Positions 46,281 through 53,535 of a stretch of 64,000 nucleotides of DNA are shown piece after piece. Below the pieces are notes generated by a model that had not been told where the DNA came from, made no database searches, and was given only the letters and a program-made list of their open reading frames with translations. A program made the translations under genes and the position numbers. The stretch covers positions 3,304 to 67,303 of the forward strand of contig JALGUR010000003.1 in the NCBI GenBank assembly GCA_029820565.1, read 5' to 3'. Each line of letters begins with the position of its first letter. The stretch's first letter is position 1. This DNA comes from Candidatus Zipacnadia bacterium (GTDB taxonomy: Bacteria; Armatimonadota; Zipacnadia; Zipacnadales; Zipacnadaceae).

Positions 46281-46505
46281 TTATCCACGGGATACTACTA
46301 AGGCTGTATTGTATAGTACACTTAGTAGTAGTAGTAGTAGTATAGTGGATACTGTGGAAAACCGCACTATGCCGTGTCTGGGCCGGTGATAATACTGGGG
46401 ATATTATAGTGCAAAACCTGCTGGAATTATCCACCATATCCCCAACTACATTATTATGCCTTATTATTCCCATATTGTCAACAGGCTGCCATGATTGTTT
46501 CCACA
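46281..46505. other. oriC segment (dnaA-dnaN intergenic DnaA-box cluster)
   Basis: The DnaA-box-like 9-mers are TTATCCACG (46281-46289), TGTGGAAAA (46353-46361), TTATCCACC (46427-46435) and GTTTCCACA (46497-46505). There is also a (TAG)6 microsatellite at 46323-46340 and an AT-rich tract at 46441-46475. Confidence 0.6.
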
Positions 46506-46535
46506 TCAACCTACCAACTGGCGGCTACGGGGTGG

Positions 46536-47918
46536 TTAGTCGGCCTGCAGTACGTTCTTCATATCATTGATTAACCACAATACGGACTCGTCGGTGGTCA
46601 ATAACTCACTAACTTTGTTATATGCGTGTAGTACTGTACTGTGGTCACGGCCACTGAAAGATTTGCCAACACTGGCCAAGGTCTCATCTGTCAGTTCACG
46701 AGCCAGGTAAATGGCTATCTGGCGCGGCCAGACAATCTCCTGGGTGCGCTTGGGGCCGCGCATATCCGCGGTATCGCAATCCATCTGGGCGGCCACGTGC
46801 TCAATGATTTGATCGACAGTCACGCGGTGCTGAGTAGTTGCCGTGGAGTAATCGGCCACTATATCCTGAACTGCCGGCATGGTCAGTTCCTCGTCGGTGA
46901 GCGAGGCATAGGCACAAATCTTGAGCAAGGCCCCTTCCAACACTCTGATATTGGACTCTATGCGCTGAGCGACGTACTCCAGTATCTCGCGGGAGAGGTC
47001 AACGCCCTCGGCCTCGGCCTTCTTTTCCAGGATGGCCACGCGAGTCTCGACATCAGGGCAGCGCAGGTCAGCGACAATGCCCATCTCCAGTCGGCTGCGC
47101 AGGCGGTCATTCATAATCTGCAGATGGCGCGGGGGAGCATCGCTGGCGATGACTACTTGCTTGTTGGTTTCACAGAGGGTATTGAAAGTGTGGAAGAACT
47201 CCTCCTCCGAAGCCGGCCCCTCAATAGCGGCAATAAACTGTATATCATCGACTAACCACACATCTACATGGCGGTATTTACGGCGGAAAGCAGCAGTGCG
47301 ATTGTCACGGATTGCGGTGATGAGTCGATTGACGAAGTCCTCGGCTGATATGTAGACCACTCGGGAGGCAGGATGCTGGTCAATGACCATATGCCCAATC
47401 GCTTGCAACAGGTGCGTTTTGCCCAGGCCGACCTTGCTGTGAATGAACAAGGGGTTGTAACTCTTCCCGGGAGATTTGGCCACCTGCTGGGCAGCGGCAT
47501 GAGCAAAACGGTTGCAGTCGGCCACGACGAAGTTCTCAAAGGCGTATTTGGGGTTCAAGGGGGTCGAGGAAAAGTCGCCTTCGTCGCTCGGCGCGGCAGC
47601 AGCCGTTGATCCAGCCAGTGCGGGCGGATGCGGGGATTGGTCGGTAGACTCGACGACCTGCATCTGGACCTGCACCGGTTCCTCCAGCAATTCGGTCAGA
47701 CAAGTACCAATTGCCGGCAGATGACGTTGCTCGAGCCAGTTCTTAGCAAACTGGCTGGCAACTCCCAGTACAAAGACCTGTCCGTCATACTGTAGCGGTA
47801 CAGCGCGACGCAAGAAACTGTCGCAAGTGGCTTGGCCCACCCGTTCGGCTAAGGCGGACAGTGCGGCGTGCCATAGGTCCTGTAAACCGACTGTAGAGGC
47901 CTGAGACATCCGGGACAC
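46536..47918 (-). CDS. dnaA: Chromosomal replication initiator DnaA
   Basis: 460-aa ORF with FENFVVADCNRFAHAAA, the Walker A GLGKTHLLQAIG, VDDIQF and the C-terminal DNA-binding motif GRDHSTVLHAYNKV. Confidence 0.97.
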   Translation of the reverse strand: MSRMSQASTVGLQDLWHAALSALAERVGQATCDSFLRRAVPLQYDGQVFVLGVASQFAKNWLEQRHLPAIGTCLTELLEEPVQVQMQVVESTDQSPHPPALAGSTAAAAPSDEGDFSSTPLNPKYAFENFVVADCNRFAHAAAQQVAKSPGKSYNPLFIHSKVGLGKTHLLQAIGHMVIDQHPASRVVYISAEDFVNRLITAIRDNRTAAFRRKYRHVDVWLVDDIQFIAAIEGPASEEEFFHTFNTLCETNKQVVIASDAPPRHLQIMNDRLRSRLEMGIVADLRCPDVETRVAILEKKAEAEGVDLSREILEYVAQRIESNIRVLEGALLKICAYASLTDEELTMPAVQDIVADYSTATTQHRVTVDQIIEHVAAQMDCDTADMRGPKRTQEIVWPRQIAIYLARELTDETLASVGKSFSGRDHSTVLHAYNKVSELLTTDESVLWLINDMKNVLQAD

Positions 47919-48163: not shown

Positions 48164-48556
48164 TTTTCCACACCAGTTTTCCACAATTGTGGAAAACACT
48201 CCCTACTGCCTTCTCCATAAGTATACCACATTCCCGGCAATAAACAAAGGGATAAATTATGTATTTTATTAAAAAAGCCTAATATTTTTGTTGCGAAACT
48301 CTGAATACCCGAATGGTTTCGTGCAATAGTAGGTTGCTCAGATTAGTTAACTGTCCACTCGTGCTACGTAAATGAATCCCAGCCTACGCCGCACTGAAAC
48401 TTGGCAAGAAGCGTACAACCACATAAATAGGATAGTTGCCGGGGATCATAGTAGGAAGTGCCGTGGTGGCCGAAAGCAGTGAGGATTGCTTGTAGGCGCA
48501 ATATATCCACAGTTTCCACAAAATCTTCCCCACAAGTTATCCACAATTGTGGATAA
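48164..48556. other. oriC segment upstream of dnaA: two palindromic DnaA-box pairs flanking an AT-rich unwinding candidate
   Basis: The left side has TTTTCCACA (48164-48172) and the palindrome TTTTCCACA-AT-TGTGGAAAA (48177-48196). An AT-rich tract lies at 48238-48292. The right side has ATATCCACA (48503-48511), GTTTCCACA (48512-48520) and the perfect consensus palindrome TTATCCACA-AT-TGTGGATAA (48537-48556). Confidence 0.7.
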
Positions 48557-48588: not shown

Positions 48589-49917
48589 TTAGGTCAAGCG
48601 GCGCAGCCAGCGGCGCGGCGGCCAGCGCAGTACCCGACGCCCGGGACGGCGGGGATCATCTACCAGGGCCAACAGGGTTACGAAAGCCGCCAGTTGCATA
48701 CCTATGGCGGCGATGAGCACGACGCCAAGGCCCAATCTGTCCCCGAGGTATCCGGCCAGAATAGGCGCGCCAATCTGAGTAGGAATTGCGGCCGTGTTAA
48801 ACAAGGCTACATAAGTGCTTTTATCCTCGTGGGGGCACATTTCGACTAACATGTTTATCAAGCCGACGCCAAAGGCACTGTTGGCCAAGCCGAGGAAGAT
48901 AAAGACCGCATAGAACAGTGTTATAGTAGGGCTCACTAAAGCCGTCAGGGTGGCGCCAATCATCGCTACTATACCCCATGCGAGCACCCGGCGATAACCG
49001 CGCCGGTCGCCCAGGCGGCCCAGGACGAGGCCCCCTACTGCCGCGGCGGCCATAAGCAGTAGGGTGAATGTTCCAGCTATTTCAGCGGGTTGGGCAAACT
49101 GCTCTATGGCATATACGGGGAAGAAAATGGCTACCATTGCGCCCATCTGGTAGATATAACAGGAGAAAATGAAGCGACGCAAGCGCTGGTCGGTCTTGAT
49201 AGCGGCGAGCAAAACGGACCGATAAGAGAGTTGCCGGCTTGAGGTATCCGCTTCGGACGGTACTACTTCACGGGCCATGCGGTACAGGCCAGCGGCGATG
49301 GTCATAAAGATTCCGGCTATGATAAACAAGTGACTGAAGTTAGTAGGAAACTGGAAGCGACTCAGGATATATCGGGCGTACGCTGCTCCGAGAACGCCGA
49401 AGACGCTAGACGTGCCGATAATTATGCCCATCGCCTGGCCGCGGCGGTTATCGGGAAACAGGCGACGCAACAAGTCTCCCCACAGAGGCACTACTATTCC
49501 CAAAGCGGCTAAGCGTATGGCCATTACCGTCAGGAACGTCCACGTCATCCGGTCAGGATGGGTGAGCGACCAACGGCCGACCATGACCCCAACCGCAATA
49601 AGCAACAGGGCCACCGGGAAATGCAGGCCGGCAAATACCCCTACTTTGCGCCGCAGGCGGCGGGTCCAGCGCACTGAGGGCAATTGGAGGAAGGCAAAGG
49701 CAGCTATTTGCAGGCCGGGCAGTGCTCCGATGATCGTCTTGGTGGCCCCGAGTCTTTGCAGGTAGACCGGTTGAATGGTGCCTAACGCCATACAAGCGTA
49801 GGCCGCCAGCCAGAGGCTGTCGGCCAGGCTGCAGGCTACCACGTTGCGCCGGTAGTAGATTTCCCGGCGGTCGTCGGGTTCAGTTGGCAAGTTGCCGCCG
49901 CCCTTGGCCGTAGACAT
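48589..49917 (-). CDS. MFS transporter
   Basis: 442-aa ORF with about 12 predicted TM segments and MFS-like loop motifs (GRLGDRRGYRR). Confidence 0.8.
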   Translation of the reverse strand: MSTAKGGGNLPTEPDDRREIYYRRNVVACSLADSLWLAAYACMALGTIQPVYLQRLGATKTIIGALPGLQIAAFAFLQLPSVRWTRRLRRKVGVFAGLHFPVALLLIAVGVMVGRWSLTHPDRMTWTFLTVMAIRLAALGIVVPLWGDLLRRLFPDNRRGQAMGIIIGTSSVFGVLGAAYARYILSRFQFPTNFSHLFIIAGIFMTIAAGLYRMAREVVPSEADTSSRQLSYRSVLLAAIKTDQRLRRFIFSCYIYQMGAMVAIFFPVYAIEQFAQPAEIAGTFTLLLMAAAAVGGLVLGRLGDRRGYRRVLAWGIVAMIGATLTALVSPTITLFYAVFIFLGLANSAFGVGLINMLVEMCPHEDKSTYVALFNTAAIPTQIGAPILAGYLGDRLGLGVVLIAAIGMQLAAFVTLLALVDDPRRPGRRVLRWPPRRWLRRLT

Positions 49918-50137
49918 AGCACAACATATTCTGCCTTGCTTGTCTTTGTCCTTCTCTATGCCACTGTCTTGAATACTTCAAGATTGACTATCTCGCTGCC
50001 GATGTATTCAGTGAGGGCGAAAAGGCATATAGGTATCAGATATTGGGGGATTGCGGTGCCGAGGAGGTAAATATCGCCCGGCGGCGAATGCCGTACCAGT
50101 GCATAGAGATTTGTAGCACATCATAGGACTCACGCCA

Positions 50138-50902
50138 ATGGGCACCTCTTCGGCCCAGCGGTCTCCCTCCACTCCGGAGTGGGATCGCGTGAAAGAACTT
50201 TATCGGCAGCCCCAACCTCCCCCTGGGGAGGTCGTGAGCCGCATAATCCAGGCCTTAGATCCTGACACTCGTCAGGATATGCATGACCGGGCGGTAACCG
50301 CAGCCCTGGATACGCTGCTGTGGGGCAGCAGTTCGGTGGCCGAGCAGGGCCTGGAGCAGTTCCTGGAAGAGTTTCAGCCGATCTCAGGGCCGCCAGTGGT
50401 GGCGCTGGCCGCCGCCCTGCGGGATACCACCGTAGATTATATCACGACCGCCGCCGTCGCCTCGCGCTTTGGCGAACTGGCCATTGATGCCCTGAGCAAT
50501 ACGGTCCTCACCGTCGCCGCCGGTGAGCAGGGCCTGCTTCAGGTAAGCGCCGACCAGGCCGACGCTAACTACGGACGCTATGTTCGCGAAAGCAACCTGT
50601 CCGGGCTCAGTGTCCAATTCTTCTCCCACGATTTTGACCGCGCGCTGCGCTACTTCGTCTCCCGAGACCTCAGTGATTTCATCGGCAGCGAGGCCCTTCC
50701 TACTGTCAGTAACGGGTCGCGGCTGCTGGACGATGTGGCCCACTACTGCCGGCAAACTGCCCAACAGATGGACCTGCGGGAGTACGAAGACCAACTTCAA
50801 CAAGCCATACGATTGCCTATTGATGAACGCGTCCAAGCCCTGCGACCCATCACTGCCGTAGGGATAACCGCAGGACTGGCGATATTGGCGGGGGGCATAT
50901 AA
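50138..50902 (+). CDS. Hypothetical protein, partner of the QueC-like enzyme (QatB-like position)
   Basis: 254-aa ORF. The N-terminus MGTSSAQRSPSTPEW has Gly directly after the initiator Met. The body is mostly helical and the C-terminal tail is hydrophobic (AVGITAGLAILAGGI). Its stop lies 3 nt before the GTG start of the next gene. Confidence 0.45.
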   Translation: MGTSSAQRSPSTPEWDRVKELYRQPQPPPGEVVSRIIQALDPDTRQDMHDRAVTAALDTLLWGSSSVAEQGLEQFLEEFQPISGPPVVALAAALRDTTVDYITTAAVASRFGELAIDALSNTVLTVAAGEQGLLQVSADQADANYGRYVRESNLSGLSVQFFSHDFDRALRYFVSRDLSDFIGSEALPTVSNGSRLLDDVAHYCRQTAQQMDLREYEDQLQQAIRLPIDERVQALRPITAVGITAGLAILAGGI

Positions 50903-50905
50903 TCT

Positions 50906-52267
50906 GTGGCCGCTACTGTGGCACAAATTGAGGGCCTGCCGCCGAGCGTGGTGGCCAGCGATCCAAAGGTGGCCAAGGCTGACTGGCAATTAGATTGGCG
51001 TTCGCCCTGCCATAACGCGGTCTGTACGCTCACCGAACTACAGCAGCATCTGCCGGCCCCCCTTAGTCCTCTGGCCGAAGACTTTATTGATGTCGCCACT
51101 GCGGTCTACCTCACTGATATCGCAGTGCCTCGCGGGCGCAACGAACGGTGGGTGCGGGACATAGAAGTGCTCCTTGCGGTGCGTCGTGTGGACTTCTGGG
51201 AGTCGGTCGGCGGACAGTTGCTCCGACTGGTGCAAACCCTGACCGGAGACAATTTCCGCTTTACCTTCTACCCGCGTGCTCAACGCGCTGACAGCAATAA
51301 ATCCCCACAGGACGAAAGTTGTACCGACGACAGCCCTGATTGTGTCTGCTTGCTATCTGGGGGCTTGGACTCGCTGGCGGGCGCGGTAATGCTGCTGCGG
51401 GCTGGGCGCCGGCCTCATCTGGTGATGCATTATTCGGGCAATCCCACCGTCCGGGCCGCTCAGGATTATGTGCAGCAGTTGCTGGCCGGCAACTGGTCGG
51501 AGCGCAGCCGCTTCAGCGGTGTGCATATCGCTCCTGACCTGCGCCGTCCTGAGGCGCTGCCTTATCCTGAACCTGACCAGCGCGAGGCTTCGCGCCGCGT
51601 GCGGTCCTTGCTGTATATGACGCTGGCGGCAGTGGCGGCGACTGCAGCCGGCCTGGCAGAGGTATATCTGGGCGAGAACGGCGTGCTGACTGCGGCCCTG
51701 CCGTTGACGGTGGCCCGCAGCGGCAGCCTGTCCACCCGTAGTACCCATCCGGCCGTCATAAACCTATTCAATGGTCTGTGCGAGCAGGCCGGCTGGGACT
51801 GCCGAGTGCAGAACCCCTTCCTCTACCAGACTAAAGCTGAAGTGATACGTGACATCCTGCGCCCGGCGCTCAGTCCCCTGGACATCCAGAAGACCGCCTC
51901 CTGCTGGATGACCGGCCGCGGCAACCGTCAGTGCGGCGGGTGTATTCCGTGCCTGCTGCGGCGGATTGCGATGCTGGCCGCCGGGCTGCCTGATGAAGCC
52001 TATATGATGGACCTGCTGGGCGACCCGCTGCCCCACTCCGGCACCGATGCTTTCACCAACTTAGTTGATCTGCTCAACCACACGGCTACGGTGCTGGGCA
52101 AAAGTGACGAGGAATTACTGGAGGAGTATCCGCGGTTGCTGGACCTGGCGGCGGCCGGGGTCTCCGTCACCGAGGTAATCGCCACCCTCCGCCGCCACGC
52201 CACCGAAGTCCACGACGTCATCACTACCCACTTCCCCGCCCCCGCCGCCCTGCTGGAAGTGCTCTAA
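50906..52267 (+). CDS. QueC-like PP-loop ATPase with an N-terminal extension of about 150 aa (QatC/Cap9-like)
   Basis: 453-aa ORF with a GTG start. The PP-loop CLLSGGLDS is at nt 51347-51373. The four-Cys zinc cluster is C333-x9-C343-x2-C346-x2-C349 (SCWMTGRGNRQCGGCIPCLLRR, nt 51902-51952), with QueC-like spacing. No queD, queE or queF genes are nearby. Confidence 0.75.
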   Translation: MAATVAQIEGLPPSVVASDPKVAKADWQLDWRSPCHNAVCTLTELQQHLPAPLSPLAEDFIDVATAVYLTDIAVPRGRNERWVRDIEVLLAVRRVDFWESVGGQLLRLVQTLTGDNFRFTFYPRAQRADSNKSPQDESCTDDSPDCVCLLSGGLDSLAGAVMLLRAGRRPHLVMHYSGNPTVRAAQDYVQQLLAGNWSERSRFSGVHIAPDLRRPEALPYPEPDQREASRRVRSLLYMTLAAVAATAAGLAEVYLGENGVLTAALPLTVARSGSLSTRSTHPAVINLFNGLCEQAGWDCRVQNPFLYQTKAEVIRDILRPALSPLDIQKTASCWMTGRGNRQCGGCIPCLLRRIAMLAAGLPDEAYMMDLLGDPLPHSGTDAFTNLVDLLNHTATVLGKSDEELLEEYPRLLDLAAAGVSVTEVIATLRRHATEVHDVITTHFPAPAALLEVL

Positions 52268-53535
52268 TCCGCAGGCACGGCTGCCTCTGTAGCCACCACT
52301 GTTTGCTCACCCTCGCGGAGCTTGGTGTATAGTACGACGATGGTCACCAGTACCACCAGTTCGATTGTTGAGCGTGTTAGCGAAAGCAACGTCTGAAGAG
52401 CAGCGTTATGAATTGTTGGCCATGCGGCAGCGCTGAGTAGCGCATATACCGGTACGATTACTACCAACCAACGCAGTAACAAGACCAGCAAGTCGCACCA
52501 CCGGCCGCGGATTAACTGGAAGTTTCTTACCACTGCCGGCCAGAAATTGGTTCGTTCCGCCAGAACTATCCAGGGCACGAATAGGAGGACGATGCGGATG
52601 ACGGGAGCCAACTGGAAAACAAAACCTTGCATTGGGAGATACATCCATATCGGGAAGGCGGCAGCTCCAGTATAAGGCAGAGCGACGGTGAACGTGAGCC
52701 AGGCGATAGGCAGCCAGCTCTTGAGGGCTCCCTGTATCGCGGCACACAGATTCCAGTACGCACCAGCGCCAACCTGTAGGACTACGTGCCATAGGAGTGC
52801 GGTCAGTACGACTTCGGCGAAGGCCAAGAAGAGGGGCAGTAGACATGAAAGAAACAAATATGCGTCAGAGACTATCCCTGGCTGCCTTAAAAGAAGGGCG
52901 GACGCGACGCTGAATCCAGAGTGTGCGCCTATGACTAGAAAGCCGCCCAGAGTGAGATAGATTGGCCAAACCAGCCGCTGGTGGGTGTCCAGCGGCAGCC
53001 AGTTGGGCCGCCTGAACCACAGCGTGATTAGGACTGCAGCCAAAGCTCCGAGGGCCGGTATTAATACCGCCCAAGCAGAATATCCTACGTTCAGATCAAC
53101 AAAGCGAAATTGAGGCAGCGCGCGCCACACCCAGGATACCGGGCCCGTTCCAGCTATGCCGTCCGAATCTATAACCACTGCTCTACCATGAAAGGTGGGG
53201 GCGTCCGTCCGCTCGTCGCCAGGCGGGGAGAGACCTACAGACGCGGCCCACTGCTCCCGATAAGGCGCGAAGATCAAGGGGTCTATAATGAATCTGCAGA
53301 TGCCTGCTGAAATCAGCCAGCAGGCCAGGAGAATAAAGAAGAAACTACGGTTGTGCCACAGTCGCTGCACAGCCAGGCTAAACAGGACAAGCGGATCGCG
53401 GAGGGGGTTCATGGGCCGCTGCTGTTCGGCGCATCGCTGCCATTCAGCCCAATACCACACAACGATGGCAGCTACCACAAGTCCAACTATCGCTGTGTTT
53501 GTTTGCGGCACTCCAGCCACCTCCCACCCTGGCAA
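52264..53535 (-). CDS. Polytopic membrane protein, hypothetical
   Basis: 423-aa ORF with about 9-10 hydrophobic segments. It is convergent with the QueC-like gene, with a 4-nt 3'-end overlap. No family recognised. Confidence 0.55.
   Translation of the reverse strand: MPGWEVAGVPQTNTAIVGLVVAAIVVWYWAEWQRCAEQQRPMNPLRDPLVLFSLAVQRLWHNRSFFFILLACWLISAGICRFIIDPLIFAPYREQWAASVGLSPPGDERTDAPTFHGRAVVIDSDGIAGTGPVSWVWRALPQFRFVDLNVGYSAWAVLIPALGALAAVLITLWFRRPNWLPLDTHQRLVWPIYLTLGGFLVIGAHSGFSVASALLLRQPGIVSDAYLFLSCLLPLFLAFAEVVLTALLWHVVLQVGAGAYWNLCAAIQGALKSWLPIAWLTFTVALPYTGAAAFPIWMYLPMQGFVFQLAPVIRIVLLFVPWIVLAERTNFWPAVVRNFQLIRGRWCDLLVLLLRWLVVIVPVYALLSAAAWPTIHNAALQTLLSLTRSTIELVVLVTIVVLYTKLREGEQTVVATEAAVPAD

What the first reader, a model, noticed from the sequence alone, without database searches (positions are those of the whole stretch)
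50138..52267. Stand-alone QueC-like enzyme and Met-Gly partner: a QatB/QatC-like core without an ATPase or TatD nuclease
Seen in the sequence: two + strand genes are separated by 3 nt (TAA-TCT-GTG) and lie between unrelated genes on the opposite strand. The 453-aa product has the PP-loop SGGLDS and a C-x9-C-x2-C-x2-C zinc cluster with QueC-like spacing. About 150 extra N-terminal residues precede the PP-loop. The window contains no queD, queE, queF or tgt genes. The 254-aa partner begins MGT... and ends in a hydrophobic tail. Established knowledge: QueC-like enzymes outside the queuosine pathway are signature components of the QatABCD defence system (QatC) and of type IV CBASS (Cap9). Inference: this is a reduced or differently wired relative in which the QueC-like enzyme acts on its upstream partner, possibly at the exposed N-terminal glycine. 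The usual QatA ATPase, QatD TatD nuclease, CD-NTase and TGT-like genes are all absent from the window, so the effector logic is unknown. A divergent 220-bp promoter region contains a 6-3-6 palindrome, CTTGAATACTTCAAG, at 49969-49983.
Basis: partly seen in the sequence, partly recalled or inferred. Interest (0 to 1): 0.8.

Follow-up and report, generated by a model that had tools for sequence, protein, structure and literature searches.

The report
Natural two-gene QatBC module, Armatimonadota
These two genes encode a QueC-like enzyme and the small protein it most likely tags on its first glycine, which is the core of the QatABCD anti-phage system; here they occur without the usual ATPase and nuclease, as a stably inherited pair found across the phylum Armatimonadota.

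Summary
The 453-aa protein belongs to the QatC family, not to housekeeping QueC. It matches QatC profiles at E 1e-60 to 1e-67 and solved QatC structures at E 1e-37, with TM 0.72 over the whole QatC chain, and it keeps all catalytic residues. The 254-aa partner matches no QatB sequence profile but is a divergent QatB. It has the published MGTS N-terminus and conserved Trp, its only structural match is the QatB chain (TM 0.47/0.54), and it sits directly upstream of the enzyme gene. It lacks the long disordered linker of canonical QatB.

No QatA or QatD is present in the window. In 55 Armatimonadota species genomes the pair is intact (52/52 testable) and never accompanied by QatA or QatD within 10 kb. 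All 25 relatives from other phyla are full qatABCD. The clade is separated from them with 100/100 bootstrap.

The pair sits about 1.6 kb from the likely oriC. It keeps that position across nine species and diverges at the rate of DnaN and RecF. That is unusual for a defence system and leaves a domesticated cellular role open.

Most likely mechanism: ATP-dependent conjugation to Gly2 of the partner. This is a new variant of a known kind.

The parts
50138..50902 (+). QatB-like partner gene (254 aa), the presumed protein substrate
   Evidence: ORF confirmed. 64 homologues, with a nearly invariant N-terminus. AF2 model has pLDDT 93.9 and is all-helical. The only real PDB fold match is QatB chain 9y02_A, prob 0.99, TM 0.47/0.54. 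No PADLOC, NCBIfam, Pfam or PDB sequence hit.
50138..50203 (+). Codons 1-22, the N-terminal anchor MGTSSAQRSPSTPEWDRVKELY (Gly2 acceptor, Trp15)
   Evidence: MGTS is present in 52/52 clade partners. It is in the same register as canonical QatB, MGTSGAYGGSxxxxW15xxAR. hhalign gives prob 70-86%, E 5e-6 to 4e-5. The published QatB MGTS and Pro16/Trp18 motif is essential for defence.
50906..52267 (+). QatC-family QueC-like enzyme gene (453 aa)
   Evidence: PADLOC QatC 4.4e-60. NCBIfam QatC 225.5 bits, cutoff 280. PDB QatC 9vlk_A and 9zee_B at E~1e-37. Foldseek 9y01_B and 9y02_B at E 1e-15, TM 0.72-0.73 of the target.
51356..51373 (+). PP-loop SGGLDS (residues 151-156), the ATP pyrophosphate-binding motif
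   Evidence: Read from the sequence. Invariant in the clade. Aligned to S156-S161 of P. aeruginosa QatC.
51734..51751 (+). TRSTHP (residues 277-282), the QatC substrate-site motif that replaces the Tyr/Asp of QueC
   Evidence: The canonical form is TRTTHP. The Ser variant also occurs in the actinobacterial-type qatABCD loci.
51902..51952 (+). Four-Cys zinc site C333/C343/C346/C349
   Evidence: All four Cys are invariant in the clade.
49918..50137 (.). 220-bp divergent intergenic region, presumed to hold the promoter of the pair. It contains the 6-3-6 palindrome at 49968-49982.
   Evidence: Palindrome found once. It is not conserved in L012-L015. No sigma-70-like site on the + strand. Function is unverified.

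Best explanation
This is an autonomous two-gene QatBC-type module.

Shown by homology:
- The 453-aa protein is a QatC-family PP-loop ATPase built on the QueC fold. It has the QatC-specific N- and C-terminal extensions, a zinc site and an intact active site.
- The 254-aa protein is a divergent QatB.

Inferred from published work on canonical QatBC and Cap9:
- Met1 of the partner is removed.
- The enzyme binds the conserved N-terminal anchor (G2-T-S ... W15).
- The enzyme activates a carboxylate with ATP, most likely 7-carboxy-7-deazaguanine supplied by host QueD/QueE.
- The modified helical partner is then the active species. No ATPase or nuclease is needed, as in the truncated QatBC operons that protect E. 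coli from lambda-vir.

In this lineage the disordered linker of canonical QatB is nearly absent, so the anchor is tethered close to the helical body.

Biological role: I put about 55% on a minimal anti-phage or stress-response module and about 30-35% on a domesticated cellular function. The downstream target is unknown here, as it is in the canonical system.
For: Enzyme:
- Matches QatC profiles and structures.
- Catalytic residues are kept and invariant in the clade: D59 (= D63 of E. coli QatC), S151GGLDS156, H175, R233, Y237, T277, S279, H281-P282, K310 and 4 Cys.

Partner:
- MGTS in 52/52. W15 and the following helix are in register with canonical QatB.
- hhalign prob 70-86% over the N-terminal 41-60 columns.
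- Fold match to QatB 9y02_A, TM 0.47/0.54; all other PDB hits have TM <=0.26.

Coupling:
- A 3-nt gap or 4-nt overlap between the genes, with the partner upstream in 52/52 testable loci.
- Co-divergence, r=0.86.
- A fused AF2 model has pTM 0.91 over 707 residues.

Autonomy:
- 0/55 clade loci have QatA or QatD within 10 kb, whereas the same HMMs hit QatA and/or QatD in 24 of the 25 loci from other phyla, both wherever the contig reaches. None in the window.

Precedent:
- QatBC alone defends against lambda-vir and against lambda and P1.
- QatB G2D and tail deletions abolish defence.
- An NDG-modified GTSKAY peptide of QatB was detected by LC-MS/MS.

Related variants lie in defence or mobile-element contexts.
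Against: - No biochemical evidence exists for this pair.
- The partner is not recognised by any QatB sequence profile.
- Foldseek E-value is only 0.21 and TM about 0.5.
- The enzyme scores below NCBIfam's equivalog cutoff (225 against 280).
- In the fused AF2 model, residues 1-5 of the partner stay disordered (pLDDT <50), so docking of Gly2 into the active site is not shown.
- The free tail is only about 12 residues, against 30-90 in canonical QatB.
- No queC/D/E lies near the pair in the window or in 55 loci. CDG supply is assumed, and the canonical QatC substrate is itself debated.
- Against a defence role: strict synteny next to recF-dnaN-dnaA across nine species, with divergence equal to that of the replication genes; housekeeping neighbours in other lineages; no occurrence on viral contigs; no compositional anomaly.
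Confidence: 0.72

Rival explanations
1. The chemistry is the same but the role is not immune. In Armatimonadota the QatBC pair has been domesticated into a vertically inherited cellular function, for example a stress- or DNA-damage-linked regulator switched by N-terminal modification.
For: - The pair keeps the same origin-proximal position in nine species down to 64% DnaN identity. QatC-like identity (82 to 65%) tracks DnaN (85 to 64%), and QatB-like identity (78 to 54%) tracks RecF (81 to 55%).
- Other lineages show conserved housekeeping synteny: a convergent GNAT and relA in 23/55 loci, and RNase HII, rpsP and SMC.
- There are no defence-island or mobile-element neighbours.
- No relative occurs on viral contigs.
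- Two species fuse the partner to a LexA/UmuD-type S24 peptidase domain.
Against: - The whole characterised QatC family is anti-phage.
- Related BC-like variants sit beside SIR2-TPR, HNH, AAA_15/21 and IS elements.
- Stable inheritance does not exclude immunity.
- Prevalence within the phylum could not be measured, and the dnaA-seeded presence/absence test was inconclusive.
Confidence: 0.3
2. The system is not autonomous. QatA-like and QatD-like partners, or other effectors, are encoded elsewhere in the genome and act in trans.
For: - Only 64 kb of this genome, and +-10 kb of the relatives, could be inspected.
- TatD-family and KAP-type proteins are common in bacterial genomes.
Against: - 0/55 loci have either gene nearby, while QatA and/or QatD hits are found in 24 of the 25 canonical loci.
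- The clade is cleanly separated from canonical QatC (100/100).
- Experimentally, QatBC needs neither gene for some phages.
Confidence: 0.1
3. The pair is a decaying remnant of a qatABCD operon that lost A and D and is no longer functional.
For: Truncated qat clusters exist in nature, including BCD, CD and D-only forms.
Against: - Both ORFs are intact in 52 species.
- All catalytic residues and the MGTS anchor are invariant.
- Divergence is at housekeeping-like rates, with co-divergence of the two genes.
Confidence: 0.03
4. The 453-aa protein is a bona fide preQ0-pathway QueC, as NCBI and JGI annotate many clade members.
For: It has a weak Pfam QueC hit over the C-terminal third (36 bits), and sources name relatives '7-cyano-7-deazaguanine synthase'.
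Against: - TIGR00364 scores 22 bits against a cutoff of 150.
- E. coli QueC does not detect it by phmmer.
- It carries QatC-specific motifs and extensions.
- Canonical QatC fails to complement a queC deletion.
Confidence: 0.01

Closest known systems
QatABCD anti-phage system, specifically its QatB-QatC core complex (PDB 9y01/9y02, 9vlk, 9zee)
   Same: - The enzyme has the QatC fold including both extensions, the PP-loop, the zinc site and the QatC-specific motifs.
- The partner has MGTS, a conserved Trp and a QatB-like helical fold.
- Gene order is B then C, with translational coupling.
- The expected chemistry is modification of Gly2.
   Different: - There is no QatA (KAP NTPase) and no QatD (TatD nuclease), in this window and in all 55 clade genomes.
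- The partner is undetectable with QatB sequence profiles and lacks the 30-90 aa disordered linker.
- The zinc loop is shorter (x9).
- The clade is restricted to Armatimonadota, vertically inherited in housekeeping neighbourhoods, and not on plasmids or defence islands.
Type IV CBASS Cap9 with its CD-NTase substrate (and Cap10)
   Same: A QueC-family enzyme conjugates a 7-deazaguanine carboxylate to the N-terminal glycine of an adjacent partner protein that begins Met-Gly.
   Different: - Cap9 is minimal (~185 aa) and keeps the canonical QueC substrate motifs. The enzyme here is 453 aa with QatC motifs.
- The partner is a QatB-like helical protein, not a CD-NTase.
- No TGT-like Cap10 was found (E. 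coli Tgt finds nothing in the window), and no CBASS effector was looked for.
Housekeeping QueC (7-cyano-7-deazaguanine synthase, TIGR00364)
   Same: Rossmann-like PP-loop core and a C-terminal four-Cys zinc site, with ATP-dependent activation of a carboxylate.
   Different: - The QueC catalytic motifs are replaced.
- There are about 145 extra N-terminal and 85 extra C-terminal residues.
- It scores far below the family cutoff.
- It is always paired with a Met-Gly partner rather than with que genes.

Membership tests
QatC (NCBIfam NF041925 / PADLOC QatC) | Significant profile match, better than to QueC | tested here: met
   PADLOC QatC 4.4e-60 against QueC 1.3e-4. NCBIfam QatC 9.9e-67 against TIGR00364 7.6e-5.
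QatC (NCBIfam NF041925 / PADLOC QatC) | Reaches NCBIfam's curated equivalog cutoff (280 bits) | tested here: not met
   225.5 bits. My HMM built from 7 canonical QatCs scores the Armatimonadota enzymes 190-246 bits and the actinobacterial canonical QatCs 208-262 bits, so divergence is similar.
QatC (NCBIfam NF041925 / PADLOC QatC) | QueC-type core plus QatC-specific N- and C-terminal extensions | tested here: met
   Foldseek to 9y01_B and 9y02_B: E 1e-15, TM 0.72-0.73 normalised to 428 residues. The PP-loop starts at residue 151, and 85 residues follow the last aligned position.
QatC (NCBIfam NF041925 / PADLOC QatC) | SGGxDS, four-Cys zinc site, D63-equivalent, RxRxxx[FY], ExG, HP and P(x)4TK motifs; QueC motifs absent | tested here: met
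   D59, S151GGLDS, R231-x-R233-xxx-Y237, E257-N-G, H281-P282, P304-x4-T309-K310 and C333/343/346/349 are present. The D(x)4R...WxR spacing is x5 rather than x7. DxWxxxF is only partly kept (DFWESVG).
QatC (NCBIfam NF041925 / PADLOC QatC) | Two 'invariant' threonines replacing the Tyr/Asp of QueC (T278/T280 in P. aeruginosa) | tested here: inconclusive
   T277 is kept and the second position is Ser279 (TRSTHP). The same variant occurs in 24/25 canonical actinobacterial-type loci, although the scan pattern selected for it.
QatC (NCBIfam NF041925 / PADLOC QatC) | ATP-dependent modification of the QatB N-terminus; required for defence | not testable with these tools
   This needs biochemistry and phage assays.
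QatB | Extreme N-terminal MGTS motif with a conserved downstream Pro/Trp | tested here: met
   The window partner begins MGTSSAQRSPSTPEW. MGTS is present in 52/52 clade partners. It is in register with canonical QatB N-termini. Published definition.
QatB | Globular all-alpha domain with the QatB fold | tested here: met
   AF2 pLDDT 93.9, 12 helices. 9y02_A is the only PDB match with a real TM-score (0.47/0.54, prob 0.99, rmsd 6.0). The E-value of 0.21 is weak.
QatB | Match to QatB sequence profiles | tested here: not met
   No PADLOC or NCBIfam hit at E<=1. No hit with my own QatB HMM. No PDB sequence hit. hhalign 25% against 6 plasmid QatBs, rising to 70-86% over the N-terminal 41-60 columns only against larger sets.
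QatB | Long disordered N-terminal tail (30-90 aa) between anchor and helical domain | tested here: not met
   Only residues 1-12 are non-helical, and pLDDT is >90 from residue ~11. hhalign shows the canonical linker as an insertion absent here.
QatB | Encoded immediately upstream of qatC and forms a complex with it | tested here: met
   Adjacency in 52/52 loci and co-divergence r=0.86. The complex itself is only suggested by the fused AF2 pTM of 0.91.
QatABCD system (four-gene definition) | QatA KAP-family NTPase and QatD TatD-family nuclease in the operon | tested here: not met
   None in the window in six frames. 0/55 clade loci within +-10 kb, while the same HMMs score 76-360 bits in the canonical loci.
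Housekeeping QueC (TIGR00364) | Reaches the equivalog cutoff; que-gene context | tested here: not met
   22.3 bits against a cutoff of 150.3. E. coli QueC/D/E/F/QueA/Tgt find nothing in the window. E. coli QueC/D/E/F/QueA/Tgt also find nothing in the flanks of the 55 clade loci.
Type IV CBASS (Cap9) | Minimal ~185-aa QueC-like enzyme with a CD-NTase substrate and TGT-like Cap10 | tested here: not met
   The enzyme is 453 aa with QatC extensions. The partner has a QatB fold, not a CD-NTase fold. No Tgt-like ORF was found.

The most novel reading that the evidence does not exclude
Armatimonadota have turned the QatBC enzyme-substrate pair into a vertically inherited, origin-proximal cellular module. 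This would be the first non-immune use of N-terminal protein-nucleobase conjugation. It may act as a stress or DNA-damage switch, as hinted by the S24 (LexA-type) fusions of the partner and the relA/GNAT synteny.
Probability: 0.3. Interest if true: 0.8.

Novelty: new variant of a known kind. Interest (0 to 1): 0.6.

Why it matters
QatBC was shown in 2026 to be the minimal functional core of QatABCD, but only by truncating four-gene operons. What the modified QatB does is still unknown. A surveyed set of 631 qat clusters contained no natural BC-only form.

This clade shows that evolution has maintained the core on its own for a long time, with a stripped-down QatB. That argues the QatB-QatC pair is a self-sufficient functional unit, and it offers a simpler system in which to find the target of modified QatB.

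The pair's housekeeping-like inheritance raises the possibility that protein deazaguanylation is not only an immune reaction.

Many clade members are annotated as 7-cyano-7-deazaguanine synthase, which would mislead metabolic reconstructions.

The sister variants seen in passing (a QatC-REase fusion with MGH-type partners, and partners fused to an S24 peptidase) suggest a broader modular family than the one now catalogued.

Tried and rejected
- **Sequence profiles on the partner.** PADLOC, NCBIfam, Pfam and a PDB sequence search gave nothing meaningful. The 4j2o hit at E 0.0024 is a short local match and I disregard it.
- **hhalign against six plasmid QatBs.** Only 25% probability.
- **Fused partner+enzyme AF2 model.** The letter fusion ran, but the tool returns no coordinates or PAE, and residues 1-5 stayed disordered. 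Docking of the tail is therefore untested.
- **Rooted NJ tree with E. coli QueC.** Distances were saturated and support was weak (23/40 and 15/40; an earlier run timed out). Whether the clade is sister to canonical QatC or nested within it is unresolved. Only the unrooted split is solid.
- **dnaA-seeded metagenome scan for presence/absence at the syntenic site.** The closest DnaA relatives were only 57-60% identical, with different upstream genes. Inconclusive.
- **Palindrome as operator.** Not conserved.
- **Promoter and terminator scans.** Uninformative.
- **C-terminal tail as a membrane anchor.** Rejected.
- **Ser279 and the x9 zinc spacing as clade markers.** Rejected.
- **The look-up of encoding contigs on the identical NCBI protein.** Not on record. 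The source organism is therefore inferred only from relatives (Armatimonadota / Ca. Zipacnadia).
- **GNAT downstream gene as a third component.** Rejected. It is convergent, present in only 23/55 loci and absent from the window.
Full report
**Observation.** They are separated by TAA-TCT-GTG, and each starts at the first possible start codon after an in-frame stop. They lie between opposite-strand genes: an MFS transporter at 48589-49917, and a 423-aa membrane protein whose stop overlaps the end of the enzyme gene. The enzyme has SGGLDS at residues 151-156 and C333-x9-C343-x2-C346-x2-C349. The palindrome is real but lies at 49968-49982. It is not conserved in the closest syntenic relatives, and no sigma-70-like promoter was found on the + strand.

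**The enzyme is a QatC, not a QueC.**
- It matches the PADLOC QatC model at 4.4e-60.
- It matches NCBIfam QatC at 9.9e-67 and 225.5 bits, below the equivalog cutoff of 280. The housekeeping QueC model gives 22 bits against a cutoff of 150.
- phmmer against the PDB finds only QatC chains (9vlk_A and 9zee_B, E~1e-37) over residues 57-368.
- A predicted structure superposes on the QatC chains of 9y01 and 9y02 at E 1e-15 with TM 0.72-0.73 normalised to their 428 residues. The QatC-specific N- and C-terminal extensions are therefore present. QueC and Cap9 match only the core.
- The residues shown or proposed to be catalytic in published QatC are kept and invariant across 30 clade members: D59, the PP-loop, H175, R233, Y237, T277, H281-P282, K310 and the four Cys.
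- The second 'invariant threonine' is Ser279. The same TRSTHP variant occurs in canonical actinobacterial-type qatABCD loci, so it is not a distinguishing feature.
- E. coli QueC does not detect this gene.

**The partner is a divergent QatB.** No sequence profile recognises it. Four independent lines point to QatB.
1. Published QatBs carry a highly conserved MGTS at the extreme N-terminus, followed by conserved Pro16/Trp18. G2D or deletion of that stretch abolishes defence. The window protein begins MGTSSAQRSPSTPEW. All 52 clade partners begin MGTS and keep Trp15 and the following RVRELY helix. Canonical QatBs from actinobacterial and Chloroflexota-type qatABCD loci read MGTSGAYGGSxxxxW15xxARxxL in the same register.
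2. Profile-profile comparison with a larger QatB set gives 70-86% probability (E 5e-6 to 4e-5) over the anchor and first helix. The canonical Gly/Ser/Pro-rich linker appears as an insertion.
3. A confident AF2 model (pLDDT 93.9, pTM 0.91, 12 helices) has a single real structural neighbour in the PDB, the QatB chain 9y02_A (prob 0.99, TM 0.47/0.54). Every other hit has TM <=0.26, although the E-value is only 0.21.
4. The gene sits directly upstream of the enzyme gene, as qatB does.

Two differences stand out. The disordered tail is about 12 residues rather than 30-90.

**The missing components are really missing, and this is a lineage rather than an accident.**
- HMMs built from seven canonical plasmid loci find no QatA or QatD in any frame of the window.
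- A scan of GTDB species representatives returned 55 Armatimonadota genomes (Armatimonadia, Ca. Zipacnadia, 'WS1') with an enzyme 42-79% identical. Identity then drops sharply to <=35% in other phyla.
- In the 55 clade loci the partner is immediately upstream in 52. The other three are cut off by a contig end. Neither QatA nor QatD occurs within 10 kb.
- The 25 other loci are canonical qatABCD-type: 24 give QatA and/or QatD hits (both wherever the contig reaches), and none matches the partner profile.
- The unrooted split between the clade and canonical QatC has 100/100 bootstrap support. Rooting with QueC was unreliable.
- Partner and enzyme distances co-vary, r=0.86.
- Caveat: the scan used two peptide patterns and kept the best 80 of 121 loci, so prevalence is a lower bound and the canonical set is a biased sample.

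**Context and inheritance.**
- The pair lies next to recF-dnaN-dnaA. DnaA boxes cluster at 46281-46579 and at 48164-48556, which includes the window's only two perfect boxes. The likely oriC is therefore about 1.6 kb away.
- Nine species representatives keep the same arrangement: recF-dnaN-dnaA | pair | membrane protein, AIRS, HAD, UPF0182.
- The pair diverges at the rate of its neighbours. QatC-like identity falls from 82 to 65% against DnaN from 85 to 64%. QatB-like identity falls from 78 to 54% against RecF from 81 to 55%.
- Other sublineages place the pair beside a convergent GNAT and relA (23/55 loci), beside RNase HII, rpsP and SMC, or beside DHDPS, SDR and URO-D.
- No tRNA, integrase or defence gene is adjacent. 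GC content is unremarkable. No relative occurs on viral contigs.
- This is vertical inheritance under purifying selection, which is unusual for an anti-phage system.
- An attempt to find close relatives with the same dnaA synteny but lacking the pair was inconclusive.

**Mechanism.** What is shown is homology of both proteins to a solved enzyme-substrate complex, an intact active site and acceptor motif, and tight coupling of the two genes.

The rest is inferred from published work. Met1 is removed, because Gly is a favourable second residue (established knowledge). The enzyme holds the G2-T-S...W15 anchor in its pocket. It adenylates a carboxylate, most likely CDG, and transfers it to the Gly2 amine. 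An NDG-modified GTSKAY peptide of E. coli QatB was detected by LC-MS/MS, although at low stoichiometry. Another group could not reconstitute the reaction and notes that the altered substrate site may imply a different adduct.

QatBC alone protects E. coli against lambda-vir and against lambda and P1. A natural BC-only system is therefore mechanistically plausible.

The fused AF2 model is confident overall (pTM 0.91), but residues 1-5 remain disordered, so tail docking is not demonstrated. No queC/D/E lies near the pair, so CDG supply is an assumption. The downstream action of the modified partner is unknown here, as it is in the canonical system.

**Comparison and novelty.**
- The closest known system is the QatBC core of QatABCD. 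The pair works like it and both proteins belong to its families in the broad sense. It fails the four-gene definition, the QatB sequence-profile test and the long-linker feature.
- A QatD-seeded survey of 631 clusters lists ABCD, D-only, BCD, ABBCD, CD, ABD and ABCCD, but no BC-only form.
- The QueC-superfamily network paper reports that only about 34% of QatC-cluster genes have qatA or qatD neighbours, and does not describe the rest.
- I found no paper in the held library mentioning Armatimonadota members or a natural BC-only clade.
- I therefore rate this a new variant of a known kind.

**Wider family (seen in passing).** An exhaustive profile search with the partner family found 365 representatives.
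- A large group of 257-265 aa proteins begins MGHxRLGRLPKTxxW. Gly2, Pro10, Thr12 and Trp15 are kept but the T-S is lost. One member overlaps by 4 nt a 625-aa QatC-family enzyme (PADLOC QatC 5.6e-56) fused to a DpnII/MboI-like REase domain (27.5 bits, cutoff 27), beside a SIR2-TPR gene. The same two-gene module, annotated hypothetical, sits between IS elements on a Leptospira noguchii plasmid.
- A shorter MGTS-type partner lies in a 357/222/433/210-aa block beside HNH, AAA_15/21, ArdC and AlpA genes.
- Two Armatimonadota species fuse the partner to a Peptidase_S24 (LexA/UmuD-type) domain.

Together these suggest that the Met-Gly partner plus QatC-like enzyme pair is a reusable core with interchangeable accessories.

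Noticed in passing
L027:4073-5383 and L049:4826-6115 (Armatimonadota MAG contigs JALGSS010000203.1 and JAGPGE010000230.1): In two species the QatB-like partner is 436 and 429 aa long. It carries a C-terminal Peptidase_S24 (LexA/UmuD-type self-cleaving) domain (Pfam E 5.7e-12 and 1.7e-13; motif GQSMEP...GKIVLAQ). This hints at a link to RecA or DNA-damage sensing.
   Followed up: partly
L097:6952-9611, L098:1563-4222, L102:5207-7851 (Leptospira noguchii plasmid NZ_CP091938.1): A sister two-gene module. The ~260-aa partner begins MGHxRLGxLPKTxxW, with Gly2 and Trp15 kept and no T-S. It overlaps by 4 nt a ~620-aa QatC-family enzyme fused to a C-terminal DpnII/MboI-like REase domain. The module lies next to SIR2-TPR or IS elements, and both genes are annotated hypothetical. 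About 65 of the 150 listed profile hits are of this MGH type.
   Followed up: partly
L100:6919-10611: A four-gene block of 357, 222 (MGTSTVHRSP-type partner), 433 (QatC-like, PADLOC 7.8e-45) and 210 aa. The flanking genes of the block match no profile. It lies beside HNH, AAA_15/21, ArdC, AlpA and HTH genes, so it may be a Qat-like system with non-homologous 'A' and 'D' components on a mobile element.
   Followed up: partly
window 46281-46579 and 48164-48556: DnaA-box clusters flank dnaA (46536-47918, - strand). The window's only two perfect TTATCCACA boxes are at 48537 and 48548. There are 27 boxes in the window against 9 expected. This is the likely oriC, about 1.6 kb from the pair.
   Followed up: partly
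23 of the 55 clade loci, e.g. L024:2579-3043 (-), L036:11679-12224 (-): A convergent GNAT acetyltransferase (PF00583) lies immediately downstream of the QatC-like gene, often followed by relA/spoT. It is conserved synteny in one sublineage and is absent from the window.
   Followed up: partly
Relatives P0087, P0093, P0097, P0144 and others: NCBI and JGI name many clade members '7-cyano-7-deazaguanine synthase'. Profile scores and motifs show this to be a misannotation of a QatC-family enzyme.
   Followed up: yes
window 52264-52267: The QatC-like gene and the convergent 423-aa membrane-protein gene (52264-53535, -) overlap at their stop codons. This leaves no room for an intrinsic terminator between them.
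   Followed up: no
L060 and L062 (two contigs of MAG JAWODS01, BLK5-2.bin.37): The same MAG holds two QatC-like fragments that overlap in residues 142-361. It therefore contains either two paralogous copies or mixed strains.
   Followed up: no
L002, L004, L007 (Xenorhabdus, Vagococcus and Aliarcobacter plasmids): In canonical qatABCD loci, RefSeq often leaves qatB, and sometimes qatA or qatD, annotated as hypothetical or generic. QatB is poorly captured by current models even within the canonical family.
   Followed up: no
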